64,000 nucleotides of DNA, taken from contig SCQK01000013.1 of the NCBI GenBank assembly GCA_004321885.1, positions 64,001 through 128,000 of the forward strand, given 5' to 3'. Position 1 is the stretch's first letter. Each line of letters opens with the position of its first letter. The position numbers and the translations under genes were made by a program. Below, piece by piece: positions 12,829 through 62,988 of this stretch. Origin of the DNA: Patescibacteria group bacterium (GTDB lineage: Bacteria; Patescibacteriota; Patescibacteriia; Magasanikbacterales; GWA2-37-8). The notes under the pieces are model-generated. The model was not told the DNA's origin. It made no database searches and saw only the letters and a program-made list of their open reading frames with translations.

Positions 12829-12858
12829 AATTAACTGATAAAAATTTATTCAATTCTT

Positions 12859-14082: not shown

Positions 14083-14239
14083 AAATTAAAGCTTCCCCAT
14101 AACCCCCTTTAATATAGAACCCCGAAATTTGACAAATAACGTGCACATGTTATACTGATTATGGAATTGATACCGCTTCAAATAGTCCCGTTTATCGGGG
14201 CGTCCCGCAAGGGTAAGGAGCGGTATTTTTGTTTTACTC

Positions 14240-14869: not shown

Positions 14870-14879
14870 AACTGTTAAT

Positions 14880-16361
14880 TCAAATTTTCTTCACAATCCC
14901 CTTTGTCGCATCCACTTCCACCATGTCGCCGTCTCTGAAAACCTTAGTGGCGATTTTCGTGCCAATCACGCAGGGAATACCGAGTTCGCGCGAGACGATA
15001 GCCGCATGGCAGACAATGCCGCCCATATCAGTAACTATCGCCGACGCCTTTTTCATGGCCGCCACGATTTCCGGTATGGTCATTTCCGAAACCAACACAT
15101 TTCCACTTACCATTTTTTTCATATCCTCTATGGTATTTACAATCGTTACTTTCCCTTTGGCCGCGCCCGGAACCGCGGTTTGCCCCCGCAGTTCTTGAAC
15201 TGATAAATCCACTTCTTCCTCACGAGCCATATTCATTTTTGACATTACGTATCTCGCTTCTTCGCCAACAATAAACTTGGATCCATTGGCGTCCACATAT
15301 AGTAAACTATATTTCCAACGTTCATTTAATTCATCCGCGTCGCACTGCCCGCTTCTAATCGCAGAAGGAACTTCTTGTGGCAAAAAATATCGCGCTTGAC
15401 GAATTGAAATAAGCAATCTTTTTGCTACTTCCCGCAGTATTTTATCAAGCGCATAAAATCCTAAAAATTGGTGCTCTTTGCTCCATGCCTTTTGATAAAC
15501 AAGGTCTTTGGTAACGCGAAATAAATGCTTGTGTTTTTCATCAATTTTTAAATTATCAAACCAGGCGTTTTGTTTTTTTTCAGCTTCAAAAAACTGATTT
15601 TTCTGACGCAAAATTTCTTGCTCAATATCGGTCCCAGCTTCTATAATCTCCTGAATATGCTTTACCACATCCTTCTCTGTCCAAGTCGGCCCTTCACAGG
15701 CAAAGGGCAAAAAACAATACTTCCGCGCATGCGCCGCAATTTTTTCCTCCCCAACGGATAATTGAATTTTGCCTTCCACAACTTCCTTCGCCAGCTCATA
15801 AAGTTCCAAATGTTCCTGTGTACCCAAAGCCGGCTTTGTCAGCGTGAGTAAATCAGCCAAAACAAGAACGGCATCTATATCAGGATTAAACTTTTTTAAA
15901 TAGTTCAATAAATATATTCCTAATTGTTCAAACGGAATTTCCAAAAGCCAACTCGGAACACGATATAAGTGTAATTCCGTCTGTAACGGCAACAGTTGTT
16001 CGTAAATTCGCGCGAGTTCTTCGTTGGATAACTTTGATAAATCACTCTCAATAATTTTCCAGGCATAATTTCTAAGCTGCGGTAAAATTTTATCTGATTT
16101 TACATGCATATCATCAATGAGCCGGGGATTTTCCACAATTGCTTCTAAAGTTTTTTTACCGGCCACTATCCATTCATTGCGAATATAGAATAACTTTGTC
16201 GCGCCGTTTTCATACAAAGGAAGGCTGTGTGCCACATCGGCAAGCCCCAGCTTGCTCAATTCGCTTGTCATGGCGCGAAAAGGCGGCTCCAATGTAATGG
16301 GAGGATACTGATACAACTTCTCAATCATTATCCATTCTTTTCTTAACAATTCTTCATTCAT
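14880..16361 (-). CDS. Paralog 3: unknown N-terminal domain (about 390 aa) plus C-terminal PEP-utilizing swivel domain
   Basis: ...GAAKGKVTIVNTIEDMKKMVSGNVLVSEMTIPEIVAAMKKASAIVTDMGGIVCHAAIVSRELGIPCVIGTKIATKVFRDGDMVEVDATKGIVKKI; 4-nt overlap with paralog 4. Confidence 0.75.
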   Translation of the reverse strand: MNEELLRKEWIMIEKLYQYPPITLEPPFRAMTSELSKLGLADVAHSLPLYENGATKLFYIRNEWIVAGKKTLEAIVENPRLIDDMHVKSDKILPQLRNYAWKIIESDLSKLSNEELARIYEQLLPLQTELHLYRVPSWLLEIPFEQLGIYLLNYLKKFNPDIDAVLVLADLLTLTKPALGTQEHLELYELAKEVVEGKIQLSVGEEKIAAHARKYCFLPFACEGPTWTEKDVVKHIQEIIEAGTDIEQEILRQKNQFFEAEKKQNAWFDNLKIDEKHKHLFRVTKDLVYQKAWSKEHQFLGFYALDKILREVAKRLLISIRQARYFLPQEVPSAIRSGQCDADELNERWKYSLLYVDANGSKFIVGEEARYVMSKMNMAREEEVDLSVQELRGQTAVPGAAKGKVTIVNTIEDMKKMVSGNVLVSEMTIPEIVAAMKKASAIVTDMGGIVCHAAIVSRELGIPCVIGTKIATKVFRDGDMVEVDATKGIVKKI

Positions 16362-17836
16362 ATTTTTCTCACAACCCCACTTGTCGCGTCAACCTTCACC
16401 ATATCGCCGTCTTTGAGTACGGAAGTGATTTTTTTCACGCCCACCACGCAGGGAATTTTAAATTCGCGCGCCACAATGGCCGCATGGCAAGTGATGCCGC
16501 CGTCCTCCGTCACGATAGCCGAGGCGCGTTTCATAGCCGGCAACATCGCCGGATAAGTCGTGAGCGCCAACATAATATCTCCTTTTTCCACCTTATCCGC
16601 GTCTGTTAACGATAGAACAACTTTTACTTTGCCTGAAACAAAACCCGGATACGCGGTGGCGCCCTTAAATCCGTCTTCAACATTTAATTTTATTTCTTCA
16701 ATATCCAAGCCGGCTATAATCGCGTCGGCCTCTTTGCCGTAATAATACTTTGTTCCGCTTTCAGTCGCTTCAATCACGCAATGCTTAATTCTCTCATTTA
16801 TTAAATCAATGTCCAATTTGTCACGCAATAGAGCGTTTTCCATTTCGTCCGTCAAAAAATGATTCGCTTGTTTATGCGATATATTCAATCGCTTGGCAAT
16901 TTCTTTGGTGAGCATGTCCAAAACATAGTGCCCATGCCAAATACAATATTTTCTGAGATCCTTAAGCCAAATAATCTCGCGGGCGATGGCGAACAATCGC
17001 GCGAGCTGCGGGGGCAAGTTGATTTCGGAAATTACTTTATTTTGTTCCGCGATGAGTTTCTCGTAGCGTTCTTTTTCTTCTTTGAGCATTTGGTCCGGGT
17101 CAGTTACGCGAGGCAGGGCTTCCTTAACCTGCTCTTCATAATATTTCAAATCATAAGCCGGCCCGATATAGCCGTATGGCGTCCAGCGCCATTTTTGCCA
17201 ATGCTTTGTTATTAATTCTTTGTACTGGATTCCCGCTTTCGCGGGAATGACAACGGCCTTAAGCAACTCCAAAAAATCCAATTGCTCCAACTGGACAAAA
17301 TTCTGTTTAGCCGGAGTGGTAAGCAGAACAAAATATTCTATTGTTTTTACCGGATCATCTATGCCTAAACTTTTTAAATGTTCTCCTAATTTTTGCTTTA
17401 AATACTCCGAAAAAATCATGCCGTCGCTGTCCACAAACCAAGTGGTGGCGATTGATGGAAGATGACCTTGCTCGGTAAGCCATAAAAGCGTTTTGTAGTA
17501 ATCAAAAAGCTCGGCATTGTTTAGCGCGCCAAAATCTTTTCCCACCAAACTTTGAGCGTAATTAAAATAATCCCAATTTAATTTTTCGGTTCGCGCATGC
17601 AATTCCTCTGCCCACTGCGGCTCGGTAATAATTTTTTCCGCAATCCATTTCACCGTCGTTTCTATTACTTCAACCGGCACATACGCCGTATCCCTGTCGT
17701 TTCTATAATCTTGATACCAAACAGTAAATAATTGTTTGCCATTCTTTTTTGGAATATGCGCAAAAATCCCTTGGGGGTAATAGCCCAGCATGTTAAAATT
17801 CACGTCGCGGATATCAAAATTTATTCGCCATTTCAT
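16358..17836 (-). CDS. Paralog 4: unknown N-terminal domain (about 390 aa) plus C-terminal PEP-utilizing swivel domain
   Basis: ...ATAYPGFVSGKVKVVLSLTDADKVEKGDIMLALTTYPAMLPAMKRASAIVTEDGGITCHAAIVAREFKIPCVVGVKKITSVLKDGDMVKVDATSGVVRKI. Confidence 0.75.
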   Translation of the reverse strand: MKWRINFDIRDVNFNMLGYYPQGIFAHIPKKNGKQLFTVWYQDYRNDRDTAYVPVEVIETTVKWIAEKIITEPQWAEELHARTEKLNWDYFNYAQSLVGKDFGALNNAELFDYYKTLLWLTEQGHLPSIATTWFVDSDGMIFSEYLKQKLGEHLKSLGIDDPVKTIEYFVLLTTPAKQNFVQLEQLDFLELLKAVVIPAKAGIQYKELITKHWQKWRWTPYGYIGPAYDLKYYEEQVKEALPRVTDPDQMLKEEKERYEKLIAEQNKVISEINLPPQLARLFAIAREIIWLKDLRKYCIWHGHYVLDMLTKEIAKRLNISHKQANHFLTDEMENALLRDKLDIDLINERIKHCVIEATESGTKYYYGKEADAIIAGLDIEEIKLNVEDGFKGATAYPGFVSGKVKVVLSLTDADKVEKGDIMLALTTYPAMLPAMKRASAIVTEDGGITCHAAIVAREFKIPCVVGVKKITSVLKDGDMVKVDATSGVVRKI

Positions 17837-17838
17837 AT

Positions 17839-18882
17839 TTATCCGAAGTAGTTTTTCACCGCGAATTCAAATTGCTGGACAAATAATTCCTTAAAGTAGC
17901 GCAAACTATTTTGTTCGTAAAATAAAAGCAACGCCTTCTTGTATTCGGCGCTATCAACGCTTCTAAACGACAAAGGACACCAGTCATGCGCCAAGAGAAT
18001 CGCATTGCCCAAAATTCTGCCTGTTCTTTTATTTCCATCCACGAACGGCTGAATATATGAAATCATCGCCGCCGCGATTATGGCCTTGATTATCGGTTGC
18101 TCCTCTGTATTTACCGCGGAAATCATTTTTTCCATCGCTTCTTTTATTTGGAATTGGTTGTCTATCGGCTTATAATTTGTGCCGACAATACCCACTACAA
18201 TCTTCCTGTAATCATCCGTCACGCCCAAATCTTTTATCAACAAAGAATGCAGGGCGCGTATCAGCGCGGCGGTCGGTTTCTTGAATTTATTTTTATTTTT
18301 CAAAACAAAATCAAGCGCGTATTTATGATTCAATATCATCGTCGCCTCCGCTTTAGTGTGCCCTTTCGCCTCTTTCATTTCCTTTAACAATACTTCCGTA
18401 TCCAATAACGAATAAGTATTACCTTCAAGTTCAGATGATTTCCAGCTCAATTCAATCAAAAGTCGCTCTAATTCTTTTTGAGCGACATCGACCGCCATTT
18501 TGTCTGTTTTTTGTTGATACGCCTTGTTGCGCTTTTCTAAATCTTTTAATTCTTCCTTGTTAAACAAGCCGGATAAATGGTCAAAAATTTCCCAGTCAAA
18601 TCTGTATTTTATTTTTCTTTCATCCACCGGAACCGCAAAATAATCCGCGGCATTAACATAACGCAGAAGCGGAGTTTTAATTTTTGACGAATATGTGACA
18701 CTGCGAGCCTTGCCTCTCTTTTCTATCTGTCCGATCGAGAGTAAAATTTCCAATTCACGCAGGATTGTCGGTTTTGACAATCTGTCAAATTTACCCGCTA
18801 ATCCTTTAATAAGTTCGGCCGCTGTTACCTGTTCATTAGCCTGTACAAATTCCAAAATCGCTTTTTGACGTTTTGTAAGCAT
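17839..18882 (-). CDS. Fic/DOC family protein with N-terminal winged-HTH; the core motif is degenerate (QPFVDGNKRTGR instead of HPFxDGNGRxxR)
   Basis: MLTKRQKAILEFVQANEQVTAAELIKGL... (wHTH); ...AAAMISYIQPFVDGNKRTGRILGNAILLAH carries Gln where the catalytic His belongs and Lys in place of the second Gly. Confidence 0.7.
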   Translation of the reverse strand: MLTKRQKAILEFVQANEQVTAAELIKGLAGKFDRLSKPTILRELEILLSIGQIEKRGKARSVTYSSKIKTPLLRYVNAADYFAVPVDERKIKYRFDWEIFDHLSGLFNKEELKDLEKRNKAYQQKTDKMAVDVAQKELERLLIELSWKSSELEGNTYSLLDTEVLLKEMKEAKGHTKAEATMILNHKYALDFVLKNKNKFKKPTAALIRALHSLLIKDLGVTDDYRKIVVGIVGTNYKPIDNQFQIKEAMEKMISAVNTEEQPIIKAIIAAAMISYIQPFVDGNKRTGRILGNAILLAHDWCPLSFRSVDSAEYKKALLLFYEQNSLRYFKELFVQQFEFAVKNYFG

Positions 18883-44933: not shown

Positions 44934-45644
44934 ATGAAGATCGTCATTGTAATTCCCACATACAACGAAAGGAAGAACATCTCCAAACTAACCGAGAAAA
45001 TTTTTGCTTTGCGAATTGACGGGCTGGAAATGATCGTAGTGGACGACGGCTCGCCCGACGGAACCGGCGACAAGGTAAAAAAATTGGGCGAACGATTTCC
45101 GGTGACCCTGCTGGCGCGCGAAAAAAAACGCGGACTCGGTTCGGCTTACCTCGCCGGATTCAAGAAAGCCCTGGAAATGGGGGCTGATTTTATTTTTGAA
45201 ATGGACGCGGATTTGTCGCACGACCCCGACGACGTGCCAAGATTACTGGAGCCGTGCCTGGACGGCGCCGATTTGGCCATCGGCTCGCGCCGGGTGGCCG
45301 GCGGAAAGATTATCGGATGGGGCTGGGCGCGCAAATTCATGAGCGCCGGAGCCATGCGGCTGTCGCGCCTGATACTTCAATTAAAAAACAAAGACGTTAC
45401 CTCCGGCTTCAGATGTTGGCGCCGCGAAGCGCTTTTAAGAATTGACTTGGACAAAATCAAAAGCAACGGCTACGCTTTTCAGGAAGAAATACTCTGGCGC
45501 GCCCAGCAGGCGGGCCTGAAAATTGCCGAGGTACCGGTAATTTTTGTTGACCGCGAAGAAGGCAAATCCAAACTGGGCTGGAGAGAGGTATTGGAATTTT
45601 TTAAAGTAATGCTGTCATTGCGAGCGAAGCGAAGCAATCCCTAA
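44934..45644 (+). CDS. GT2 family glycosyltransferase (polyprenol-phosphate / dolichyl-phosphate mannosyltransferase-like)
   Basis: IVIPTYNERKNI, MIVVDDGSPDGT, FEMDADLSHDP (DxD). The last 9 codons and the stop come from the family C element at 45614-45692. Confidence 0.8.
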   Translation: MKIVIVIPTYNERKNISKLTEKIFALRIDGLEMIVVDDGSPDGTGDKVKKLGERFPVTLLAREKKRGLGSAYLAGFKKALEMGADFIFEMDADLSHDPDDVPRLLEPCLDGADLAIGSRRVAGGKIIGWGWARKFMSAGAMRLSRLILQLKNKDVTSGFRCWRREALLRIDLDKIKSNGYAFQEEILWRAQQAGLKIAEVPVIFVDREEGKSKLGWREVLEFFKVMLSLRAKRSNP

Positions 45645-45692
45645 CACAAATGATTGGGATTGCTTCGGCGCTATGCGCCGCCTCGCAATGAC
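45614..45692. repeat. Palindromic element, family C (GTCATTGCGAGCGAAGCGAAGCAATCCC…GGGATTGCTTCGGCG…CGCCTCGCAATGAC), between and overlapping the 3' ends of the GT2 and dus genes
   Basis: 79-bp nested palindrome with perfect outer arms GTCATTGCGAG/CTCGCAATGAC. Related copies at 45860-45939, 51238-51287 and 53855-53936. Confidence 0.7.
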
Positions 45693-46648
45693 AATAACAA
45701 CTCGTCAAAGGTTTTCACCCTCATTAATTTCATTTTTAATTCCTTCACTCCGGGAACGCCTTTGAAATAATAGGCGAGGTGTTTGCGAAAAGTTACCATA
45801 CTTCCTTCGCCGTAGCGCTCTAAATGCAGTTGCGCATGGCGGAGAATGACGTTTAAAATGTCATCGCGAGGAGACTGCAGGCCGACGAAGCAATCCCCTG
45901 CTTTATCAGATGGGGTTGCTTCGCTACGCTCGCAATGACAACGGAAAATCCACGGGTTGCCAAGCGCCCCGCGGCCTATCATCACGCCGTCCGCGCCAGT
46001 AATTTCCAAACACCGGCGGATGTCTTCGGACGAATTTATATCACCATTGGCCAGCGCCGGAATCTTTAACAACTTTTTCACGCGGCCAATCATTTCCCAG
46101 TTCGCTTTGCCGCTGTAGCCCTGCGTCTTGGTGCGGCCGTGAATCGTGAGTAAATCAGCGCCGGCCGCTTCCAATTTAGGCGCGAACTCCAAAATTTCTT
46201 CCTCTCTCCCCCACCCCAGCCGCGTCTTCACGGAAATCGGCGCGCCCAAATCCGCTTTTTTTAATTCTGCCACGATTTTTACCGCTCGCTCGTGGTCTTT
46301 CATCAAAGCCGCGCCCGAATTGACTTTGCCGGTTAATTTCGGCACCGGACAGCCCATATTAATGTCAATCCCGTCGGGTTTAAATTTTTCAACTAAAATC
46401 TCCGCGGCCTGACGCACTTGTTTGGGCTCGGCGCCGAACAATTGCAAAACAATCGGCCTTTCAATCGCGTCAAACTCGCACATTTTCAAGGTCTTGGCGT
46501 TGCCGCGGCAAATCGCCTCGGCGCTCACCATTTCCCGAAAAATCACGAAATCCGGGCCTGAAACCTCGCGGCAAACGCGACAAAACGGCCCGTCGGTCAT
46601 ATCGGCCATGGGCGCGAGCGCGACAATAGATCGTTCATCCATCCACAT
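45671..46648 (-). CDS. dus: tRNA-dihydrouridine synthase (Dus family) with an in-frame family C insert
   Basis: LAPMADMTDGPFCRV, QLFGAEPKQ, DINMGCP, TIHGRTK, GVMIGRGALGNPWIF; insert RCHCERSEATPSDKAGDCFVGLQSPRDD from the element at 45860-45939. Start at ATG 46646-46648; the upstream track extension is a high-GC antisense artefact. Confidence 0.8.
   Translation of the reverse strand: MWMDERSIVALAPMADMTDGPFCRVCREVSGPDFVIFREMVSAEAICRGNAKTLKMCEFDAIERPIVLQLFGAEPKQVRQAAEILVEKFKPDGIDINMGCPVPKLTGKVNSGAALMKDHERAVKIVAELKKADLGAPISVKTRLGWGREEEILEFAPKLEAAGADLLTIHGRTKTQGYSGKANWEMIGRVKKLLKIPALANGDINSSEDIRRCLEITGADGVMIGRGALGNPWIFRCHCERSEATPSDKAGDCFVGLQSPRDDILNVILRHAQLHLERYGEGSMVTFRKHLAYYFKGVPGVKELKMKLMRVKTFDELLLSLRGGA
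45860..45939. repeat. Palindromic element, family C, in frame in dus
   Basis: gtcatcgcgaggagactgcaggccgacgaagcaatcccctgctttatcagatggggttgcttcgctacgctcgcaatgac. Confidence 0.7.
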
Positions 46649-46650
46649 AG

Positions 46651-46688
46651 TAAAAATTAAGGGCCTCCGCGAAGACGCGAGGAGGCCC
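46651..46688 (-). terminator. Terminator hairpin GGGCCTCCGCGAAGACGCGAGGAGGCCC plus T-run, downstream of the high-GC islet gene and 3 nt from the dus start codon
   Basis: Perfect 8-bp GC stem. The minus-strand continuation is TTAATTTTTAC. Confidence 0.6.
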
Positions 46689-46709
46689 ATCTTGCGTCGA
46701 CGCGCCTCC

Positions 46710-47312
46710 TCATCGCGCCGACGAGAACTGATAAACCAAACCCGGATTCTGATACTTCCCCGACGGGTCGCGGTAGCCGAGCTCGCTCCGGCCAGCCTTG
46801 GCGAGCGTCTCGGCAAAGAGATCGACGACAACCTCCTCGCCGCCCTCACCGGCAACCACCACCCAGGTGTAGCCAAATCCGAGGCCCGGCAGCATCTTGC
46901 CGCACGCCCTGGCCTGCAACCCCGCCTCCATCAGCAAGACAAACAGATAGGCGTGATAGTACCGGCAGCACGCTATGGCATGGCTGAGCGCGAATGACAG
47001 TTTGGCCTGCTCCGGCGAGGGCGAGAACACGAATCTGTGATACGTCTGGCGCGCATCCTCGTCCAGCTTCGTGTCGTTAGCCAGAACCACCGCGTTATGC
47101 GGCAACGCGGCGAGCACGAGGGTCTTTACCGCCGCAAGTCGCGCGCCGATGCCCTGCGGAGAGCTGGCTTGTTCCCGCGCCAGCCGCAGATGACATCCTA
47201 TGAAGCGGTACTCGTCATCCATCTGCACGTCGAAGATGTTCTCTCCCACCCACTGTCGCCTCGCCTCAACGACCTGGGGCTTCCCGTTGTCTGCCTGCCC
47301 GTTGTCTGACAT
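46710..47312 (-). CDS. Hypothetical 200-aa protein encoded in a high-GC islet
   Basis: RBS aacAGGAGAGAGAGaacATG on the minus strand; GC about 65%; no recognisable family (MSDNGQADNGKPQVVEARRQWVGENIFDVQMDDEYRF...). Confidence 0.5.
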   Translation of the reverse strand: MSDNGQADNGKPQVVEARRQWVGENIFDVQMDDEYRFIGCHLRLAREQASSPQGIGARLAAVKTLVLAALPHNAVVLANDTKLDEDARQTYHRFVFSPSPEQAKLSFALSHAIACCRYYHAYLFVLLMEAGLQARACGKMLPGLGFGYTWVVVAGEGGEEVVVDLFAETLAKAGRSELGYRDPSGKYQNPGLVYQFSSAR

Positions 47313-47454
47313 GTTCTCTCTCTCCTGTTTTTGCTAACAAAATAATGCCCAAAAAATCGTTTTCTGTCAACAATTGCGTAATTTCATTTCTCGGGTTATA
47401 ATATCCGAAAGATTTGACATAAGCAAGCTATCCGCCTTGCGCCATTAAACCAAT

Positions 47455-48030
47455 ATGAAAAAAATCATCGCCGTAGCCGCAGTCATCATAGTCGCCGCCG
47501 GCCTCTGGTACGGTTTTACACTTAACAGTAAGAAGCAAACCAACAGTTCCAACGACTATCAAAAATACGAAAACACCGCTTACGGTTTTAGTTTGGAATA
47601 CCCGAAAACCTGGCACGCGACCGGAGCAAGCGCCACTTCCACGGTTATCAGTTTCAACGACACGGCGCCCAGCGAACCTGTGGAGGGCGCAGAGACGACC
47701 TCATCAGCCGTGATAGACATCATGATAATAGAAAACTACGACAACATCAGCTTGGGGGAATGGACTGACTTGTCTTTGGGGCTGGGGCCGGAACTGAACA
47801 TTTTGAGCGAAGAAACAATTGAAGCAAACAATACAAAATTTTTGGTGAAAACTTTTACGCCCCTGAAATTGCCCGAGGCCGCGCCGACCGCGGCGGCTTT
47901 TACCGCCTTGAATGATGAAAAATATTTCGCGCAAATTAACTACATGGGCGAAGAGCCGAATTTTACCGCCGGCATGAAACATTTCAAGCATTTACTGTCC
48001 AGTTTTCAGTTGACTTCGGCCGCGCCGTAG
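47455..48030 (+). CDS. Secreted hypothetical protein (signal/anchor plus about 165-aa domain)
   Basis: MKKIIAVAAVIIVAAGLWYGF signal-anchor; FSLEYPKTW-type beta-rich domain common in small secreted proteins; no specific family assignable. Confidence 0.45.
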   Translation: MKKIIAVAAVIIVAAGLWYGFTLNSKKQTNSSNDYQKYENTAYGFSLEYPKTWHATGASATSTVISFNDTAPSEPVEGAETTSSAVIDIMIIENYDNISLGEWTDLSLGLGPELNILSEETIEANNTKFLVKTFTPLKLPEAAPTAAAFTALNDEKYFAQINYMGEEPNFTAGMKHFKHLLSSFQLTSAAP

Positions 48031-48061
48031 GATATAATGCAATAACTAAAAAATTTCAGAT

Positions 48062-48697
48062 ATGCGAACTTCCCTTCCATTTACCCATCGCCAGCTCTCC
48101 CCTTCGCCGCCTTCGCGGCATGAGAAAGGGGAGAGGGGGACGACTGCAATATTGCCAGCTATATTGCTCATCGCGTTTGGCATTGCGGCGAGATTTTTGC
48201 CCCATCCGGCGAACTTTACTCCCATCGGCGCCATTGCTATTTTTGGCGGACTGTATCTGCCCAAAAAACTTTCTGTTTGGCTGCCTCTCTCGGCCATGCT
48301 TATCAGCGATATTTTTATCGGCTTTTATTCATTGCCGATTATGGCCAGCGTGTACGTCGGCTTTATGTTCGCCAATCTGCTATCCTTGACAGCGCGGGGC
48401 AAACTCGCATATACAAAAACCGCCTTTGGGCGGTTTGGGACTATTGCCGGCGCCACGGCGCTAAGTTCAGCCATTTTTTACCTCTTGACAAACGCGGCGG
48501 TTTGGGCATTCGGCTCTATGTATCCGCACAATTTCACCGGCCTTTTGGAATCATACTACCTGGCTCTCCCCTTCTTCCGAAACAGCCTGGCGGGCGACGT
48601 TTTCTTCACTTTCGTTTTAGTAGGCGGGATGGAGTTGCTAAAACATACGTTAAGGGATTCCTCCGCTCTCCGCCGGCTGGCGAATCGATCGGAATGA
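48062..48697 (+). CDS. Integral membrane protein (possible ECF-transporter S-component-like); the N-terminal region contains an in-frame family D palindromic element
   Basis: Five or six hydrophobic segments (ILPAILLIAFGIAARF, FTPIGAIAIFGGLYL, ...). The element at 48104-48138 encodes LSPSPPSRHEKGERG. The true start may lie downstream. Confidence 0.4.
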   Translation: MRTSLPFTHRQLSPSPPSRHEKGERGTTAILPAILLIAFGIAARFLPHPANFTPIGAIAIFGGLYLPKKLSVWLPLSAMLISDIFIGFYSLPIMASVYVGFMFANLLSLTARGKLAYTKTAFGRFGTIAGATALSSAIFYLLTNAAVWAFGSMYPHNFTGLLESYYLALPFFRNSLAGDVFFTFVLVGGMELLKHTLRDSSALRRLANRSE

Positions 48698-48699
48698 CA

Positions 48700-50118
48700 T
48701 TATCCATACGGTAACTCCTCTGGCTCTGGCGGTTCTTCTTTTCTCTCTTCTTCCACAGCAGGCCCGACAGGCAAATCCAAATCAATGGGCAAGCCAAACG
48801 GCGGCTCCGAGCGCTTGGTGGCGGATTTCTGCAACAACGGGGTCTTCACACTCGGCAACGGGAAGTGCCACAAAGTGGCCAGCTCTTCTATGTTCAAAAT
48901 ATAGGGCGTGCCGTACACTTTAATCTTGCGCTTCTTAAACGCGTTCACGAATTTGCGTTTTTTCCAAACCACTATAAGCTTCTTAAACGCGTAGTAGGCC
49001 TTGGTCACCACGTAGGGCGTGAGCTGGTTGCGGTTGACCATGCTAAATTGCTTTAGCGAGCCGACATAGCCGTCCAAGCACCGCGAGGGATTGAAAACTT
49101 CCTTGCGCGCCACATACAGGGCGCGTATTTTTGTCTTAAAGCCGACCTTGGCGATTTTGTCTTCCACGGCCTGCACCGTATTTTTCAGGCCCGGCGGCAA
49201 TTCGCTCACTTTGCCGGCCACGACCTCTTCCCTTTTGACTTCTTTTTCCTTTGGTTCAAAGTTCCAATTCCACACGTCCATGAGCATCTCAAACAGCTTG
49301 GCCGGCAAACCCAAAATGCCGCCCAGAATGCCGGCCTTGGCCGGGGCTTTTTTTTGCGCGATGATTTCCTTTACCAGACTGATGCCGGCGGCCTGCCAGG
49401 TATCGGCCACTGGCTCAATCACGATTTGCGTGAAAAAATTCTCGCCCGCCCCGAGTCGCGTGAAATTTTCCAGCACCGCGGCCATAGGGTCGTTGAACAT
49501 GGCGTCTTTGGTCACGCTGTGCTCAAACTCGGGATAGGTGCGGATGGGGTAGGCATTGTGGCCGGCTAAAGTGAATTCCACGCCGAAGACGTCTTCCGCG
49601 TCATTGGGAAATTTTGTCGGAATGACGCCGACATAATCCTCTATTTCCGTGATTTCGGCCGTCGGGTATTGGGCGTAAATGGCCGCTTCCACCACGTCGC
49701 GAAATTCTTGCTCGGTATAAATTAAAAATTGAATATAGCCGGCCATGGAAATAATCTCAAAGCTGAACCACTTTTGTTTTTTGCCCAGCCAAAATTTTTC
49801 GCCGACATTGGGCCCGACCAGCGCGCCCGACAGGTGCGAAAAAAGCTGTTCCACGGCCTTGGGGCTTTGAATCACCTCTTGCGGAATCTCAATGGCCAGC
49901 ACGAGCCATTTCCATTTGCTTGTGTAAAGCCCCTGCCGATACCACAGCCACAGCTCCTGCCCCATGTAGAAAAAAATTAAGAGCAAAATAGCCCAGCCGA
50001 TGATGCCAAACAGGGCCAAAATTATTTTTCCGCTGGACCACGTAAGCAATTGGTCCCAAAACGAAAAATTTAGATTGAATGAGACTCCGCCAAAAGGCGA
50101 CTCCATGCCAGTGGGCAT
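48700..50118 (-). CDS. Membrane protein paralogous to the N-terminal (non-ATPase) domain of the VirB4-like ATPase at 39901-42447
   Basis: AIYAQYPTAEITEIEDY vs QIHAQYPHAEILEEPDY; ATLWHFPLPSVKTPLLQKSATKRSEPPFGLP vs ASFWHLPNPHTETPHINWLGARKAPPPVNMP; no Walker motifs; 472 aa. Confidence 0.55.
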   Translation of the reverse strand: MPTGMESPFGGVSFNLNFSFWDQLLTWSSGKIILALFGIIGWAILLLIFFYMGQELWLWYRQGLYTSKWKWLVLAIEIPQEVIQSPKAVEQLFSHLSGALVGPNVGEKFWLGKKQKWFSFEIISMAGYIQFLIYTEQEFRDVVEAAIYAQYPTAEITEIEDYVGVIPTKFPNDAEDVFGVEFTLAGHNAYPIRTYPEFEHSVTKDAMFNDPMAAVLENFTRLGAGENFFTQIVIEPVADTWQAAGISLVKEIIAQKKAPAKAGILGGILGLPAKLFEMLMDVWNWNFEPKEKEVKREEVVAGKVSELPPGLKNTVQAVEDKIAKVGFKTKIRALYVARKEVFNPSRCLDGYVGSLKQFSMVNRNQLTPYVVTKAYYAFKKLIVVWKKRKFVNAFKKRKIKVYGTPYILNIEELATLWHFPLPSVKTPLLQKSATKRSEPPFGLPIDLDLPVGPAVEEERKEEPPEPEELPYG

Positions 50119-50119
50119 A

Positions 50120-50281
50120 TCATTTATTTATAAACCGGTACACGCCGCCATAGATAATCAAAACCCCTAACACTGTCCACCACCAGCCAAACAAACCCGA
50201 AACATAGCCGGCGTAATAGGCAATAACGCAAATGATGGTGGCAATAGCCGCCACCATGTGACGCACGAGATTATCGGTCAT
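50120..50281 (-). CDS. Small two-TM protein (53 aa) immediately upstream of 48700-50118 (VirB3-like position)
   Basis: MTDNLVRHMVAAIATIICVIAYYAGYVSGLFGWWWTVLGVLIIYGGVYRFINK. The stop is 1 nt from the downstream ATG. Below the ORF-track length cut-off. Confidence 0.35.
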   Translation of the reverse strand: MTDNLVRHMVAAIATIICVIAYYAGYVSGLFGWWWTVLGVLIIYGGVYRFINK

Positions 50282-50306
50282 AGATAATAATTACCACGTT
50301 AGTATA

Positions 50307-51221
50307 TCACACAACCGCCCGCCTTTGCCATTTTTCCGCCAGCACCAGCAGAGGGGCGGCGATAAAAATGGAAGAATACGCCCCGCTGGCAAAACCAATA
50401 AGCAGGGCCAGGGCGAAGTAATGGATAGAAGCGCCGCCAAAGAGATAAAGGGCGATAAGGGCGAACAAAGTGGTAACGGTCGTGTTGATAGAGCGCATTA
50501 AAGTCTGGTTCAGACCGTTGTTAACCACCTCGGCAAAGTCTTCGTTGCGCCGGCGCAATAAATTTTCCCTGATGCGGTCGTAGACCACGATGGTGTCGTG
50601 CACGGAAAAACCCAGCACGGTTAAGAGAGCCACCACGAAAGCAATATCCACCTCCACGCCCCAGCCATGCCCCAAAACCGAAAAAATACCCATCACCAAA
50701 AAGACGTCATGCACCACCGCGATTATGGCCAACAGGCCGTATTTCCAGCTGGCCACGGGCCGCGACACCTTGCGAAAGGCATAGGCGATATACAATATAA
50801 TGCCCAGGTTGACGAAGATAATGGCCCACACCGCCCGCGTGCGCAATTGCTTGCTTACGGCCGAGCCGATTGTTTCAAAACTAATTTCCTTCACCGTGTT
50901 TTCTTTGGTCTGAAAATTTTGCGTCAAGCGCTTTAGCGCCTCCTGATGTTTTTCTTCGCTCAAAAATTCGGTGCGGATAATAATGCTGTCTTCGCCGACG
51001 TTTTGAACTTGAACATTTTTCAAATCCACTTCGGCAAAAACTTTTTGCACATCAGCGGCCGGCGGCCGGTTGCGGCTAAACGATATTTCCAACAGAGAAC
51101 CGCCGGTAAAGTCAATGCCCGGCTTTAGCCCCCACATAAATATCAAAACAAAGGCGGCCACAGTTACCAGTCCGCTGAAACTAAGCAGTACCTTGGAATA
51201 CTTTATGAATGGTATGGTCAT
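50307..51221 (-). CDS. secF: Protein translocase subunit SecF
   Basis: MTIPFIKYSKVLLSFSGLVTVAAFVLIFMWGLKPGIDFTGGS...; SecD/F family C-terminal 6-TM bundle. Confidence 0.85.
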   Translation of the reverse strand: MTIPFIKYSKVLLSFSGLVTVAAFVLIFMWGLKPGIDFTGGSLLEISFSRNRPPAADVQKVFAEVDLKNVQVQNVGEDSIIIRTEFLSEEKHQEALKRLTQNFQTKENTVKEISFETIGSAVSKQLRTRAVWAIIFVNLGIILYIAYAFRKVSRPVASWKYGLLAIIAVVHDVFLVMGIFSVLGHGWGVEVDIAFVVALLTVLGFSVHDTIVVYDRIRENLLRRRNEDFAEVVNNGLNQTLMRSINTTVTTLFALIALYLFGGASIHYFALALLIGFASGAYSSIFIAAPLLVLAEKWQRRAVV

Positions 51222-51230
51222 AGTGAAAAA

Positions 51231-53333
51231 TTATGTATGGGATTGCTTCCCGCCAGAGGCGGGCAGGCGCTCTTCGCTCGCAATGACATTTTTTTTATGC
51301 CCCAAAAACATCCAATTGCCATACTCATTGAACCAGCGGAAAACAATGCGGATATTGATGCGGGTAACGGTAATGGCCGTAAACATGGAGACCAACGTGC
51401 CGATGGCCAACGTGACGGCAAAGCCCTGCACAAACCCGGTGCCAAACCATATAAGGAATCCGCAACTGATAAGGGTGGTGATATTGCTGTCGCGAATGGA
51501 CGGCCAGGCGCGCGCGAACGACTCCTCGGCCGCCGACAGCAAACTGCGGCCATTGCGTAATTCTTCTTTCATGCGCTCAAACACCAGCACATTGGCGTCT
51601 ACGGCCATACCGATAGACAAAATAAAGCCGGCAATGCCCGACAAGGTTAAAGTTACTCCGATAATCTTAAAGATGGCCAAACTTAAAAGGGCGTAGACGA
51701 GCAGAGAAACATTGGCCAACAAGCCGGGAAAGCGATAATAGCCAATCATGAAAAGCAAAACTAAAATCAAACCAACAATGCCGGCGAAAAAACTTTTACG
51801 CAGATACTCGGAACCCAAAGTGGCGTCCACTTTCTGCTGGCTGATGAGGTCTACGGCCACGGGCAAAGCGCCGGCGTTGAGGCGCTGGGACAAAAGCCGC
51901 GCTTCGCCGAGCGTGAAACTGCCCGAGATGACGGCCGAGCCGCTGGTGATGGCTTCGTTCACGCGCGGAATGCTAATGGGCTCACCGTCCAAAAATATGG
52001 CCACGTTCTTGCCCACATTGCGCGTGGTGATATCGCCGAACAATTTTGTGCCTTCTTCGTTGAATTGCAGATTGACCTGCACTTGTCCGGACTGATTATC
52101 CTGGGTTACCTCGGCGCGCTTGAGCTGCTTGCCCGACAAGCCCGAGCTTTTCCATTCCTCGGCCGGCGGCACGACATCGGAAGCCTGTTTAGTCTTCACG
52201 TACACGCGGGCCACCTCATATTCCCTGGACGGCTTTTCATCTTTTTTGTAAATAATGTGAAAACCGAATTTTGTTTCCACCGCATTGGACACAGCGCCCT
52301 TGGGCATCGCGCCCGCCGCCTCTTCAAACTCCGGCACCATTTGGCCCTTCTTAAACCAGCCCAGCTCTTCGCCGCGCACTTCCAATTTTTTATCCGGAGA
52401 ATATTGCTGTACCAACTGGGCAAAATTGGCGGGCGACGCCTGGGCTTTTATTTCACCGGCTCTTTGGCGGGCCTGGTCTTTGTTCAATTTGCTTTCACAC
52501 CCTTCGGCGCCGGCATAACAAACCAACAAGTGCGACGCGTTTATCATTTTTTCGCCGTCGCGGCCGGAGAGCCGTTTTACCACGTTCAAGCCGTCAAAAC
52601 TTTTCACCAGGGTTTTGCCCGCCTGGCCGTCTTTGGCTTTCTCGGCCCAAGCAAAAATTTCCGGATAAATTTCTTTGGTAATAAATCCCAGATTGCCGCC
52701 CTTGTCTTTGCTGGCCTGGTCTTCGGAATATTGGGCCGCGATTTTGCCGAAATCGGCCCCGGGTTTTAGGGCCGCGGTTAGAGCTGTTTTGGCTTTTTTA
52801 TCGGCCGCGCTGTTAAAAACGTCCAGGTCTTTTTTTTCTTGGGGTGTCAAATCGCGGGCCGGGTCGTGATTTTCTTCCTTAAATTCCAGTATCGGAGTTT
52901 CGCCAATCATTTTGATGGCCTGATTGACATCGGTAACGCCGGGCAATTCCACAATCACGCGATAATCGCCGCCGACCTTGGTGGTTTGCACCAATGGCTC
53001 GGCCACGCCCAGGCCCCCGCGCACGCGCCGCTCTATCACGTCGCGCACGCCTTCCACGGCGTCGCCGCGGTCGCCTTCGGGAATGGTTTCTGTTTTGGCC
53101 TGATAAACCAAATGCGCGCCGCCCTGCAAATCCAGGCCCAGATTAAAGCCCTTATCCGGCAAGCGGGGCAAACCGATGTTGGCCGCGTTGTTGAGCCAGT
53201 CTATGCCGCGGTTGGCGAACGCCGGCAAAACAATAAGCAGGGTGGCAATGGCCAAAGCGACCACGCCGGCCGCGTGCCATTTTAATTTTTTCGCCGACGA
53301 AACCTTGTTGGAAATTTTTACTGCCATAAACAC
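51231..53333 (-). CDS. secD: Protein translocase subunit SecD with an inserted parvulin-type (PpiC-like) peptidyl-prolyl isomerase domain; C-terminal tail and stop supplied by a family C element
   Basis: SecD N-terminus and DLQGGAHLVYQ, C-terminal TM bundle. Middle segment ...INASHLLVCYAGAEG...GEELGWFKKGQMVPEFEEAAGAMPKGAVSNAVETKFGFHIIYK resembles the parvulin rotamase fold. Last residues …ASEERLPASGGKQSHT* are read from 51238-51287. Confidence 0.8.
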   Translation of the reverse strand: MFMAVKISNKVSSAKKLKWHAAGVVALAIATLLIVLPAFANRGIDWLNNAANIGLPRLPDKGFNLGLDLQGGAHLVYQAKTETIPEGDRGDAVEGVRDVIERRVRGGLGVAEPLVQTTKVGGDYRVIVELPGVTDVNQAIKMIGETPILEFKEENHDPARDLTPQEKKDLDVFNSAADKKAKTALTAALKPGADFGKIAAQYSEDQASKDKGGNLGFITKEIYPEIFAWAEKAKDGQAGKTLVKSFDGLNVVKRLSGRDGEKMINASHLLVCYAGAEGCESKLNKDQARQRAGEIKAQASPANFAQLVQQYSPDKKLEVRGEELGWFKKGQMVPEFEEAAGAMPKGAVSNAVETKFGFHIIYKKDEKPSREYEVARVYVKTKQASDVVPPAEEWKSSGLSGKQLKRAEVTQDNQSGQVQVNLQFNEEGTKLFGDITTRNVGKNVAIFLDGEPISIPRVNEAITSGSAVISGSFTLGEARLLSQRLNAGALPVAVDLISQQKVDATLGSEYLRKSFFAGIVGLILVLLFMIGYYRFPGLLANVSLLVYALLSLAIFKIIGVTLTLSGIAGFILSIGMAVDANVLVFERMKEELRNGRSLLSAAEESFARAWPSIRDSNITTLISCGFLIWFGTGFVQGFAVTLAIGTLVSMFTAITVTRINIRIVFRWFNEYGNWMFLGHKKNVIASEERLPASGGKQSHT
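51238..51287. repeat. Palindromic element, family C (half-copy: GGGATTGCTTCCCGCCAGAGGCGGGCAGGCGCTCTTCGCTCGCAATGAC)
   Basis: Shares GATTGCTTCG and CGCTCGCAATGAC with the 45614 and 53855 copies. Confidence 0.6.
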
Positions 53334-59987: not shown

Positions 59988-60101
59988 ATACCGGCTTCGG
60001 AAAGTGGTAACGGGCCCATCCGTCGGTTGACGGAGAATTAGGGCTACGTGCCAATCCTCTAAAGCCCTCGCATGAGCGAGGCAACGAACAAGGAGAGACG
60101 G

Positions 60102-60485
60102 ATGGAAACCAAGACGCAGAAGGGGAACCTCGCCGTGCCCGTCATCGCCCCCGACACGGACCAGCTCCAAAAGGCAATCTTCACGCACGAGCCCACCCCG
60201 ATCGTCTACAAGAACGAGAAGGGCGAGCTGGTGCGCTGCTGGGCGGCCTTCAACGCCGTCCACGCCGAGACCGCCGACAAGAGCGTGTTCGTGCTGCGGG
60301 GCAAGATCGTGGCCGGCGACGCGAACTTCCTGCGCGCGCACGAGAACGCGGTGCGCCGGAACTACGAGGCGTCCCTCATCTACAAGCTCGGGCAGGACTA
60401 CGCCCAGCTGGAGATGTGGGACAAGTCCGGCAAGGACGAGATCCCGCCGGGCACGTTCTCGAGCGACGACCACCGCGCGCGATAG
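60102..60485 (+). CDS. Hypothetical 127-aa protein in a high-GC islet
   Basis: METKTQKGNLAVPVIAPDTDQLQKAIFTHEPTPIVYKNEKGELVRCWAAFNAVHAETADKSVFVLRGKIVAGDANFLRAHENAVRRNYEASLIYKLGQDYAQLEMWDK...; strong GC3 bias; AGGAGAG RBS. The minus-strand 265-aa ORF is an antisense artefact. Confidence 0.5.
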   Translation: METKTQKGNLAVPVIAPDTDQLQKAIFTHEPTPIVYKNEKGELVRCWAAFNAVHAETADKSVFVLRGKIVAGDANFLRAHENAVRRNYEASLIYKLGQDYAQLEMWDKSGKDEIPPGTFSSDDHRAR

Positions 60486-62328: not shown

Positions 62329-62988
62329 CTAATTTTTTTTATTTTCCAAAATCCTCATTAATTCATCTCTCATTTTTTTATTATGGTAATAAACTGTTAA
62401 AACTCCATGTCTACTTTTTTCGCGATAAGTACCTTTTCTAACAGACATTGTTATCGTGCTTTTGTAAAATTGATTTTTATTTACCTTTATTTGCCCCTTC
62501 CAAAACCTTAGCGCTTCAGTCACTGAAATGTCATTGAATAACTGAAGGCTAAACTTAAGGTCTTTTCTTCTAATGGAAAAAAATTTAACTAAAAAGTCAA
62601 TAAATTTCTTGACCAATCTTGGGTCAGTATTTCCCAACCTAACTGTGCATTTATCCGCTTTTGTTCCCTCCCCCCAGTATAACCCAAGTCCAAAACCATA
62701 TAAAATTCCCTCTTTTAATGTATGTGGATACTTTATGACAAATGGATCACCGTTTGGGTTATTTTTTTTGTAAATAGCTTCACTGATAGATCTACACGTA
62801 ATCGAATATTTTTCCATCCAATAACGTATTTTATTTACTGAACATTCGAAAATATTGGCAATTTCTTGTGCCGACTTTCCCTGATTTTGATATAATTTTT
62901 GCAAAACACCTTTGCTTATCATATCACAAATTATATCATAGCCGACTGAATAGTACAAGTAACCCCAAGTAGATAATATGGTTGTCAA
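62329..62988 (-). CDS. HTH plus LAGLIDADG-like protein (possible free-standing homing endonuclease) lying between the two intron-containing tRNA genes, in the position of glyT
   Basis: N-terminal HTH (QGKSAQEIANIFECSVNKIRYWMEKY); central ILYGFGLGLYWGEGTK resembles a single LAGLIDADG motif (LxGFxDGDG); 219 aa. Confidence 0.4.
   Translation of the reverse strand: MTTILSTWGYLYYSVGYDIICDMISKGVLQKLYQNQGKSAQEIANIFECSVNKIRYWMEKYSITCRSISEAIYKKNNPNGDPFVIKYPHTLKEGILYGFGLGLYWGEGTKADKCTVRLGNTDPRLVKKFIDFLVKFFSIRRKDLKFSLQLFNDISVTEALRFWKGQIKVNKNQFYKSTITMSVRKGTYREKSRHGVLTVYYHNKKMRDELMRILENKKN

What the first reader, a model, noticed from the sequence alone, without database searches (positions are those of the whole stretch)
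46651..47330. High-GC islet 3: unknown 200-aa protein whose terminator abuts the dus start codon
The minus-strand ORF 46710-47312 has RBS AGGAGAGAGAG and about 65% GC. It ends in the hairpin GGGCCTCCGCGAAGACGCGAGGAGGCCC (46661-46688), only 3 nt from the dus ATG. The native dus promoter must therefore have been displaced or read through. That is consistent with insertion of foreign DNA directly in front of a housekeeping gene. The product has no recognisable family.
Basis: partly seen in the sequence, partly recalled or inferred. Interest (0 to 1): 0.55.

Follow-up and report, generated by a model that had tools for sequence, protein, structure and literature searches.

The report
Inserted orphan gene upstream of dus
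A GC-rich 200-codon gene wedged directly in front of the tRNA-modification gene dus in a Patescibacteria genome is real, was probably inserted in this lineage, and encodes a very rare protein with a transglutaminase/papain-like fold; this is interesting locally but not extraordinary.

Summary
The ORF (46710-47312, minus strand), its Shine-Dalgarno sequence and the hairpin 46661-46688 are all present. GC is 62-63%, not 65%. The hairpin stem ends 12 nt from the conserved dus ATG (46648), not 3 nt; only the T-run ends 3 nt away.

The ORF is a real gene:
- It has coding-type GC periodicity.
- About 15 homologues exist at 25-45% identity among roughly 15 billion proteins.
- AlphaFold2 on a 12-sequence alignment gives pLDDT 91.

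None of 42 dus loci from relatives (Dus at most 68% identical) carries the gene. Five relatives have a promoter 6-8 nt before the dus ATG; the window has none. Here dus must depend on the promoter upstream of the inserted gene and on read-through of the hairpin. A mutually exclusive, equally stable hairpin spans the stop codon.

Family members are about 10 GC points above their host DNA in four genomes, at different loci. Insertion is supported. Donor, vehicle and protein function are unknown. Interest is modest.

The parts
47342..47370 (-). Sigma-70-like promoter TTGACA-17 nt-CATTAT. The -10 hexamer ends 29 nt before the ORF's ATG. It is the only promoter-like site on this strand between 47370 and the dus start.
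   Evidence: (10 of 12 matches). The site lies in 35% GC DNA.
47313..47326 (-). Shine-Dalgarno region AGGAGAGAGAGAAC. The GGAG core is at 47325-47322, 9 nt before the ATG. This marks the 5' edge of the GC-rich segment.
   Evidence: Sequence. GC step from 35.2% to 62.9%.
46710..47312 (-). Gene for a 200-aa cytoplasmic protein (NCBI EPN28_03490). It has a transglutaminase/papain-like fold with the CCRYYH motif (Cys115, Cys116, Arg117), GYTW (Tyr148 at the canonical His position) and VVVD (Asp164).
46679..46712 (-). Alternative hairpin A. It pairs the stop codon TGA plus the SD-like GAGGAGG (46711-46705) with GCCUCCUC, which is the 5' arm of the terminator. Free energy is -22.7 kcal/mol. It cannot coexist with hairpin B.
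   Evidence: inverted repeat I6; hairpin A appears in the MFE fold of 46640-46715.
46661..46688 (-). Terminator-like hairpin B: an 8-bp GC-rich stem, a 2-nt bulge, a 3-bp stem and a 4-nt loop. Free energy is -20.1 kcal/mol.
   Evidence: (I14).
46649..46660 (-). U-rich tract TTAATTTTTACT between hairpin B and the dus ATG. There is no SD and no -10/-35 pair here.
   Evidence: best promoter match in the 90 nt upstream of dus is 5 of 12.
45671..46648 (-). dus (tRNA-dihydrouridine synthase, 325 aa), starting MWMDERS. Several relatives start with the same MW. An alternative in-frame ATG at 46690 would add 14 residues (MGLLASSRRPLIFT) that no relative has.
   Evidence: (PF01207, E = 6.5e-80).

Best explanation
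The feature is a single-gene, promoter-less, GC-rich segment of about 666 bp (46661-47326). It carries a strong Shine-Dalgarno sequence, a 200-codon ORF and a GC-rich hairpin. It lies between the divergent promoter region and the start codon of dus in a Patescibacteria (Magasanikbacteria-like) genome. It was most likely gained in this lineage by horizontal transfer or recombination.

The gene is transcribed from the sigma-70-like promoter at 47370-47342. dus has no promoter of its own here. In several relatives dus appears to be expressed as a leaderless mRNA from a promoter 6-8 nt before the ATG. In the window dus is therefore the second cistron, and its transcription depends on polymerase passing hairpin B (46688-46661).

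An equally stable alternative hairpin A (46712-46679) sequesters the 5' arm of B, and in prefix folds it forms before B is complete. Read-through should therefore be frequent. A ribosome terminating at the ORF's stop codon, which lies inside hairpin A, would favour B.

The product is a soluble protein of the transglutaminase/papain-like fold and belongs to a very small family found in Patescibacteria-like contigs. It keeps a nucleophile-type Cys115 at a helix N-terminus, next to the invariant Arg117, and Asp164. It has Tyr148 where the superfamily has the catalytic His. It is therefore either a non-canonical cysteine-dependent amidase, peptidase or acyl-transferase, or a non-catalytic binding module.

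Shown: the sequence anatomy, the homologues, the fold, the absence of the gene from relatives' dus loci, the lack of a dus promoter-like site, and the two competing RNA folds. Inferred: the insertion event, read-through transcription, any attenuation, and any enzymatic activity.
For: Real gene:
- GC1/2/3 of .657/.433/.781 is a coding pattern.
- A full-library HMMER search found 7 homologues at 33-45% identity. Profile searches found more.
- AF2 on the 12-sequence alignment gave pLDDT 91.4 and pTM 0.89, against 41 for the single sequence.

Fold:
- The Foldseek top hits are 3kd4, 3isr and 6g49 at E of about 1e-3.
- Family members give weak Pfam hits to Transglut_core (P0006 residues 72-153 to profile positions 20-108 of 108) and to EDR1_CTR1_ARMC3_pept.
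- Cys115 immediately precedes helix 116-129. The strands 134-140, 147-154 and 160-163 follow in the superfamily's order.

Insertion:
- No family member occurs in 42 dus loci.
- GT2 lies next to dus in L002, L003, L005, L006 and L008; dnaX also matched in L002, L005 and L008.
- The neighbours upstream of dus vary among relatives: DUF4430 proteins or tyrosine recombinases.
- The gene's GC and GC3 are outliers.
- Family genes are 9-12 GC points above host DNA in the window, L020, L027 and L055, at unrelated loci.
- A second assembly is identical across both junctions.

dus expression:
- Nine of 19 relatives' Dus proteins start with MW, as at window 46648; others start MxW.
- TTGAxx-17-TAxxxT ends 6-8 nt before the ATG in L002, L003, L008, L031 and L040. 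The best match in the window is 5 of 12.
- There is no other minus-strand promoter-like site in the ORF.

RNA:
- Hairpin B is -20.1 kcal/mol and hairpin A is -22.7 kcal/mol. In context the two folds are -32.4 and -32.0 kcal/mol.
- Hairpin A forms in prefix folds as soon as position 46680 is included. Masking the stop-codon region gives hairpin B.
Against: - The closest relatives available have Dus only 68% identical or less. The absence of the gene therefore does not date or prove an insertion, and the boundaries cannot be set by alignment.
- No integrase, transposase, tRNA target, target-site duplication or attC-like site flanks the segment.
- Codon choice conditional on the amino acid is not an outlier (z = -1.3). 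The GC3 excess (.78 against a maximum of .66) is much milder than in the window's two other islets (.95).
- Two distant family members have host-like GC.
- The canonical catalytic His is absent. In the second subfamily the Asp is absent as well, so enzyme activity is uncertain. Model coordinates could not be inspected.
- The attenuator reading rests on energy calculations for one sequence (z = -2.5; 2 of 200 shuffles fold as well). No covariation test was possible.
- Expression was not measured.
Confidence: 0.6

Rival explanations
1. The gene is an old, vertically inherited resident of this lineage. Its high GC reflects its Ala/Gly/Arg-rich composition and its codon preferences, not foreign origin. 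Relatives have simply lost it or moved it elsewhere.
For: - All family members with enough genomic context lie in Patescibacteria-like or similar small-genome contigs.
- The promoter region is native-like, AT-rich DNA.
- The codon log-likelihood under the window's own usage is unremarkable (z = -1.3).
- P0004 and P0008 have host-like GC.
Against: - The gene is absent from all 42 relatives' dus loci, while the downstream synteny is kept.
- GC3 of .78 exceeds that of every long ORF in the window outside the three islets.
- The same offset of about +10 GC recurs in three other hosts at different loci.
- dus has lost the promoter arrangement seen in relatives.
Confidence: 0.2
2. The hairpin is not a terminator. 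dus starts at the upstream ATG 46690 and uses the SD-like GAGGAGG that overlaps the ORF's stop codon. The two genes then form a tight, translationally linked operon, and the hairpin is simply coding sequence for a 14-residue N-terminal extension.
For: - The gene call on the Logan contig starts dus there, 19 nt after the ORF's stop, giving 339 aa.
- The frame is open from 46690 into dus.
- GAGGAGG lies at 46711-46705.
Against: - No relative has the extension. Nine of 19 start exactly at MW and others at MxW.
- The SD-to-ATG spacing is 14 nt, which is long.
- The ATG is paired in hairpin A, and its G is in the stem of hairpin B.
- A -20 kcal/mol stem followed by UUAAUUUUU has the classical form of an intrinsic terminator.
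Confidence: 0.2
3. The segment is an assembly chimera: GC-rich reads from another organism were joined into a Patescibacteria contig.
For: The source is a metagenome-assembled genome, and there are three sharp GC-rich islets within 64 kb.
Against: - A second assembler produced a contig with 0 mismatches over 45614-51268, spanning both junctions.
- Each islet is a complete gene set precisely between native genes.
- The homologues are themselves in Patescibacteria-like contigs.
- Both assemblies come from the same run, so this check is not fully independent.
Confidence: 0.03

Closest known systems
Transglutaminase-like cysteine peptidase superfamily (Pfam Transglut_core PF01841 and relatives; structures such as S. 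pyogenes TglA 9crn, BDI_1141 3kd4, P. aeruginosa TgpA 6g4h)
   Same: - The alpha/beta core is the same: the Cys lies at the N-terminus of a helix and is followed by three strands.
- The motif order matches, namely C..(Y/F)..LF..LL...G..AR, then xxW on the next strand, then D on the following strand. The comparison with the PF01841 consensus is from my own knowledge of that consensus.
- Family members give weak Pfam matches to the core.
   Different: - The window protein gives no HMM hit. Relatives score 14-15 bits against a cut-off of 23.
- Tyr148 sits where the catalytic His belongs. In the second subfamily the Asp is Ser.
- An invariant Arg two residues after the Cys is the family's hallmark.
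- Sequence identity to the structural hits is 8-15%.
CPR-C4, a cysteine protease conserved in the Candidate Phyla Radiation (PDB 7ob6/7pjo; PMC9108980)
   Same: - It is also a small soluble protein that was first annotated as hypothetical.
   Different: - CPR-C4 has a Cys-His-Leu(carbonyl) triad and is widely conserved in the CPR (PMC9108980).
- This family lacks the His, has about 16 members in all, and shows no sequence similarity to CPR-C4.
LapG / bacterial transglutaminase-like cysteine proteinases (BTLCP; 4fgo)
   Different: - LapG is periplasmic, calcium-dependent and has a Cys-His-Asp triad (established knowledge).
- This protein has a hydrophilic N-terminus with no signal peptide, and it has no His at the equivalent position.
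Small genomic islet acquired by horizontal transfer next to a housekeeping gene, with the downstream gene brought under the incoming gene's transcription
   Same: - Compositional step at the edges of the segment.
- Absent from relatives.
- A single accessory gene followed by a hairpin.
- The downstream gene is left without its own promoter.
   Different: - No integrase, tRNA target, direct repeats or IS ends.
- The segment carries no promoter-like site; the only one upstream lies in AT-rich DNA outside it.
Translation-coupled transcription attenuators (leader-peptide type, e.g. trp and pyrBI)
   Same: Two mutually exclusive hairpins, with the first overlapping the end of an ORF and the second being a terminator with a U-tract.
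   Different: - The upstream ORF is a full-length 200-codon gene, not a leader peptide.
- There are no regulatory codons and no conservation or covariation evidence.
- The comparison rests on a thermodynamic prediction only.

Membership tests
Pfam Transglut_core (PF01841) / transglutaminase-like superfamily | A profile-HMM match at or above the curated gathering score | tested here: not met
   The window protein matches no Pfam family even at E up to 10. P0002 scores 14.7 bits and P0006 scores 14.3 bits, against a cut-off of 23.
Pfam Transglut_core (PF01841) / transglutaminase-like superfamily | A papain-like alpha/beta core with the nucleophile Cys at the N-terminus of a helix | tested here: met
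   [not shown]
Pfam Transglut_core (PF01841) / transglutaminase-like superfamily | A Cys-His-Asp catalytic triad | tested here: not met
   Cys115 is present in all but one of the family members that cover the motif (Ser in P0003). The strand position of the His is Tyr148 (GYTW) in subfamily 1 and lies in TVYN in subfamily 2. Asp164 is kept in subfamily 1 but is Ser in subfamily 2. The mapping rests on motif order and a partial Pfam alignment. Model coordinates could not be inspected.
BTLCP / LapG-type periplasmic proteases | A signal peptide with periplasmic location, plus a Cys-His-Asp triad | tested here: not met
   The N-terminal 30 residues are hydrophilic (mean Kyte-Doolittle score -0.99) and there is no signal-like segment. 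The His is absent.
CPR-C4 / vasohibin-like proteases | A Cys-His-Leu(carbonyl) triad and sequence membership of the CPR-C4 family (PMC9108980) | tested here: not met
   [not shown]
Rho-independent (intrinsic) terminator | A GC-rich stem-loop immediately followed by a U-tract, placed after a stop codon | tested here: met
   The stem is 8 bp plus 3 bp with a 2-nt bulge, at -20.1 kcal/mol, and is followed by UUAAUUUUU. It starts 21 nt after the stop codon. The simple scan missed it because of the bulge.
Rho-independent (intrinsic) terminator | It actually terminates transcription | not testable with these tools
   This needs Term-seq, RNA-seq or in-vitro transcription. A competing hairpin of equal stability exists.
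Horizontally acquired genomic islet | Composition deviates from the host genome | tested here: met
   GC is 62.9% against a window mean of 48.9%. GC3 is .78 against a mean of .56, sd .08 and maximum .66 over the window's long ORFs. The conditional codon log-likelihood is not an outlier.
Horizontally acquired genomic islet | Absent at the same locus in related genomes | tested here: met
   None of 42 dus loci carries a family member. The relatives are distant, with Dus at most 68% identical.
Horizontally acquired genomic islet | Mobility signatures: integrase or transposase, a tRNA target, flanking direct repeats | tested here: not met
   There are no convincing flanking repeats. The nearest tRNA is 1.7 kb away, beyond dus and GT2. 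The neighbouring genes are a weak PsbP-like match, DUF6580 and DUF8128.
Integron gene cassette | A promoter-less ORF followed by an attC site with RYYYAAC and GTTRRRY cores, in an array next to intI | tested here: not met
   Neither core motif occurs at either end of the segment. The segment is a single unit, and no integrase-like gene is among its neighbours.

The most novel reading that the evidence does not exclude
The CCRY family may be a horizontally mobile, fast-evolving conflict gene of Patescibacteria, such as a toxin, effector or defence component. It would use a non-canonical cysteine centre (Cys-Arg/Tyr instead of Cys-His-Asp) on a transglutaminase fold.

In this genome its insertion may also have placed the housekeeping gene dus under a translation-coupled attenuator formed by the two competing hairpins at 46712-46661.

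Hints in favour:
- The family is very rare.
- It lies at different loci in different hosts.
- It shows a recurrent excess of about +10 GC.
- At one fixed locus (rpsF-pilB) the alleles are only 39% identical, while the flanking proteins are 80-91% identical.
Probability: 0.12. Interest if true: 0.55.

Novelty: new variant of a known kind. Interest (0 to 1): 0.3.

Why it matters
The protein adds an undescribed, very small family to the transglutaminase/papain-like superfamily, and this family keeps the nucleophile Cys but not the catalytic His. If it is active, it would broaden the catalytic repertoire of that fold. If it is inactive, it is another case of the fold being reused as a binding module.

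The locus is also a clean natural example of an incoming gene capturing the transcription of an essential-type neighbour, dus, whose own promoter-like site next to the start codon (leaderless type, as seen in relatives) is no longer there. This shows how gene gain can rewire expression in the reduced genomes of Patescibacteria.

Neither point overturns current understanding. The value is mainly for annotation, and as one data point, with the window's two other GC-rich islets, on gene flow into these genomes.

Tried and rejected
- **HMM libraries.** Pfam, NCBIfam, PADLOC and PHROGs gave nothing significant for the window protein.
- **PDB by sequence.** A profile search of PDB sequences returned only spurious designed-repeat hits.
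- **Single-sequence AF2.** It was useless, with pLDDT 41.
- **AFDB Foldseek.** The library was unavailable.
- **Phages, plasmids and viruses.** tblastn against phages and plasmids gave no match. A scan of IMG/VR viral contigs with family motifs found no relative, and the first attempt failed because the alignment was too diverse. The BFVD fold search returned only weak hits, several to the same superfamily. A phage or plasmid vehicle is therefore unsupported.
- **Closer relatives.** The genome and metagenome scans with Dus found none above 68% identity, so the insertion boundaries could not be fixed by alignment.
- **Promoter remnants.** Aligning the promoter regions of relatives with the window showed T-rich resemblances at two places: CGATTTTTTGGGC upstream of the ORF, and CTTAATTTTTAC just before dus, both resembling CTTGATTTTTT in relatives. 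I judged these too short and too AT-rich to call a remnant or a target duplication.
- **Flanking repeats and attC cores.** None were found.
- **Rfam.** The window contains only tRNAs.
- **Spurious ORF.** Rejected on the homologues, the fold and the codon-position GC. The plus-strand ORFs 46422-46997 and 47037-47309 are shadows.
- **Conserved gene neighbourhood.** None was found. Family members sit next to rpsF/pilB, RpfB-like/ksgA, GNAT/DAHP synthase, MCRA and TsaD genes.

Full report
**1. What is in the sequence**

The minus-strand ORF 46710-47312 (200 aa, ATG start) is present as described. It is preceded by AGGAGAGAGAGAAC, with the GGAG core 9 nt from the ATG. Further upstream lies a promoter-like TTGACA-17-CATTAT at 47370-47342, which is the only such site on that strand in the region.

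It is unique in the window and has a free energy of -20.1 kcal/mol as RNA. It is followed by TTAATTTTTACT and then the ATG of dus at 46648.

Two details need correcting:
- The stem is 12 nt from that ATG, not 3 nt. Only the T-run ends 3 nt away.
- GC is 62.4% for the ORF and 62.9% for 46661-47326. Only one 200-nt window reaches 65.5%.

The compositional step is nevertheless real. The 128 nt upstream are 35% GC, dus is 52.5% and the window mean is 48.9%. The ORF's GC3 (.78) exceeds the .66 maximum among the window's 54 longest non-overlapping ORFs (mean .56, sd .08).

**2. Is it a gene?**

Yes, on three lines of evidence:
- The codon-position GC (.657/.433/.781) is a coding pattern. The overlapping plus-strand ORFs do not show it.
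- The word-indexed search of 5.8 billion clusters found only the protein itself (NCBI EPN28_03490, Patescibacteria group bacterium). The exhaustive HMMER search of 1.84 billion representatives then found seven homologues at 33-45% identity. Profile searches raised the family to about 16.
- AlphaFold2 improved from pLDDT 41 on the single sequence to 91.4 (pTM 0.89) with a 12-sequence alignment.

**3. What the protein is**

No HMM library recognises it. The alignment shows a hallmark PLSxAL....(A/G)CCRY..ALFF.L motif. In the window's subfamily this continues as ARACGK..PG.GFGYTWVVV....G..VVVDLF.E and DPSGKY.

Fold searches agree on the superfamily:
- Foldseek agreed, with 3kd4, 3isr and 6g49 at E of about 1e-3.
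- Family members give sub-threshold Pfam matches to Transglut_core. P0006 residues 72-153 match profile positions 20-108 of 108, ending at its VVVD. P0004 matches EDR1_CTR1_ARMC3_pept.

In the model Cys115 sits immediately before helix 116-129. Strands 134-140, 147-154 and 160-163 follow in the order of the superfamily. By that order the catalytic His position is Tyr148, the Trp two residues later is kept, and the Asp position is Asp164. In the second subfamily the corresponding residues lie in TVYN and the Asp is replaced by Ser.

Arg117 is conserved in every member that covers the motif, and Cys115 in all but one. The protein has a hydrophilic N-terminus and no signal peptide.

I therefore place it in the superfamily by fold. 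It is not a member of any described family, and its catalytic competence is open.

**4. Is it an insertion?**

Dus proteins of relatives were collected from one genome per species (16 loci) and from metagenomes (26 loci). The best are 60-68% identical and are Magasanikbacteria-like.
- GT2 lies next to dus in five relatives, and dnaX also matched in three of them.
- No locus contains a family member.
- What lies upstream of dus varies. In L002 and L040 it is a divergently transcribed DUF4430 protein. In L005 and L006 it is a tyrosine recombinase whose stop overlaps the dus start.

The region upstream of dus is thus a synteny breakpoint in this group, and the window's arrangement is unique among the sampled genomes.

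A Logan assembly of run SRR8426592 reproduces window 45614-51268 with no mismatch, which covers both junctions. This makes a chimera unlikely, though both assemblies come from the same reads.

There are caveats:
- No close relative is available.
- No mobility gene, tRNA target, flanking repeat or attC core is present.
- Codon choice conditional on the amino acid is not an outlier (z = -1.3).

**5. The family elsewhere**

Members sit in unrelated neighbourhoods, with no conserved partner:
- between rpsF and pilB (P0002, P0006)
- next to an RpfB-like gene and ksgA (P0004)
- after a GNAT gene (P0008)
- next to MCRA (P0012)
- next to TsaD (P0005)

GC of the family gene against the rest of its contig:

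| Locus | Gene GC | Rest of contig |
|---|---|---|
| Window | .624 | about .50 |
| L020 (P0002) | .545 | .433 |
| L027 (P0006) | .510 | .407 |
| L055 (P0005) | .438 | .347 |
| L018 (P0004) | .350 | .374 |
| L019 (P0008) | .490 | .515 |
| L054 (P0012) | .530 | .497 |

In four hosts the gene is 9-12 GC points above the surrounding DNA. In the other three it is host-like.

In L020 and L027 the flanking RpsF and PilB proteins are 80% and 91% identical. The family proteins at the same position are only 39% identical, and the whole promoter-to-terminator cassette has diverged except for the core motif. This fits a weakly constrained, fast-evolving or replaceable accessory gene. No phage, plasmid or viral-contig relative was found.

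**6. Consequences for dus**

Relatives start Dus with MW(I/F/Y) 10-12 residues before LAPMAD, which matches the window's ATG at 46648. In L002, L003, L008, L031 and L040 a TTGAxx-17-TAxxxT pair ends 6-8 nt before that ATG, which implies a leaderless mRNA. This is an inference from consensus matches.

In the window the best match in the 90 nt before dus is 5 of 12, and no other promoter-like site lies within the ORF. The segment itself carries no promoter-like site; the only one upstream of the ORF lies in AT-rich DNA outside it, and dus should be transcribed from that site by read-through.

Folding 46720-46645 shows two mutually exclusive structures:
- Hairpin A (46712-46679) pairs the stop codon and the SD-like GAGGAGG with the 5' arm of the terminator. 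Its free energy is -22.7 kcal/mol.
- Hairpin B is the terminator itself, at -20.1 kcal/mol.

In context the two folds are isoenergetic, at -32.0 and -32.4 kcal/mol. Hairpin A forms first in prefix folds, and masking the stop-codon region leaves hairpin B. This has the geometry of a translation-sensitive attenuator. It rests on one sequence (z = -2.5), and I give it low weight.

An in-frame ATG at 46690 is used as the dus start by the automatic gene call. The 14-residue extension it would add is found in no relative. The SD spacing is 14 nt, and the ATG is base-paired in both folds. I therefore prefer the conserved start at 46648.

**7. Verdict**

The feature is a lineage-specific, GC-rich, single-gene segment set directly in front of dus that carries no promoter-like site of its own; the only such site upstream of dus now lies beyond the inserted ORF. 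The product is not without relatives. It founds a tiny, unannotated branch of the transglutaminase/papain-like superfamily that lacks the canonical His.

The donor, the vehicle and the function remain unknown. This is a new variant of known kinds of thing: a small horizontally acquired islet and a transglutaminase-fold protein. It is of modest interest.

Noticed in passing
window 10469-11140 (+), with flanks 10278-11290: A second GC-rich islet holds a 223-aa histidine-phosphatase-family gene (PF00300, E = 6.7e-8). GC is 67.7% and GC3 is .946, far more extreme than in the finding. It has the SD AAGGAGAGG. By eye, a TTGACA...TATATT promoter-like site lies about 190 nt upstream, and about 90 nt of GC-rich 3' UTR precede an AT-rich hairpin. 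There was no plasmid match by tblastn.
   Followed up: partly
window 60072-60485 (+); the likely start is 60102: A third GC-rich islet holds a 137-aa (or 127-aa) ORF with GC3 of .957. It has no Pfam match and no phage match. It has the SD AAGGAGAGA, and by eye a TTGACA-N17-TATCAT promoter-like site about 100-130 nt upstream and about 170 nt of GC-rich 3' UTR. Together with the finding this makes three such islets in 64 kb.
   Followed up: partly
window 11320-18882; also 7220-7582 and 62329-62988: A block of seven co-directional ORFs has GC of .39-.44 and GC3 of .42-.50, clearly below the rest of the window (about .50 and .60). Two isolated ORFs have GC of .35 and .315. The window is compositionally mosaic in both directions.
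   Followed up: no
L005 4162-4998 and L006 4177-4998 (loci of relatives): In some relatives a tyrosine recombinase (Phage_integrase plus SAM-like N-terminal domain, E down to 1e-45) sits immediately upstream of dus, and its stop overlaps the dus start by 4 nt. That is the position occupied by the orphan gene in the window. L004 and L030 have similar DNA in the 70 nt before dus.
   Followed up: partly
L002, L003, L008, L031 and L040, the 40 nt before dus: Good TTGAxx-17-TAxxxT pairs end 6-8 nt before the dus ATG with no Shine-Dalgarno sequence. This suggests that dus is expressed as a leaderless mRNA in these Magasanikbacteria-like genomes.
   Followed up: partly
L020 9900-10640 compared with L027 690-1440: At the orthologous rpsF-pilB locus of two related groundwater genomes, the family gene with its promoter and terminator has diverged to 39% protein identity. 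The flanking RpsF and PilB proteins are 80% and 91% identical. In L027 the ATG of the called ORF is preceded by an SD and a GTG that run into a stop after 6 codons, which hints at decay or a shifted start.
   Followed up: partly
L003, L004 and L005 (record titles): Three MAG records titled 'uncultured Gammaproteobacteria bacterium' carry Dus proteins 55-62% identical to the window's. L003 and L005 also keep the neighbouring GT2 gene, and L005 dnaX as well. Their taxonomic labels look doubtful.
   Followed up: no
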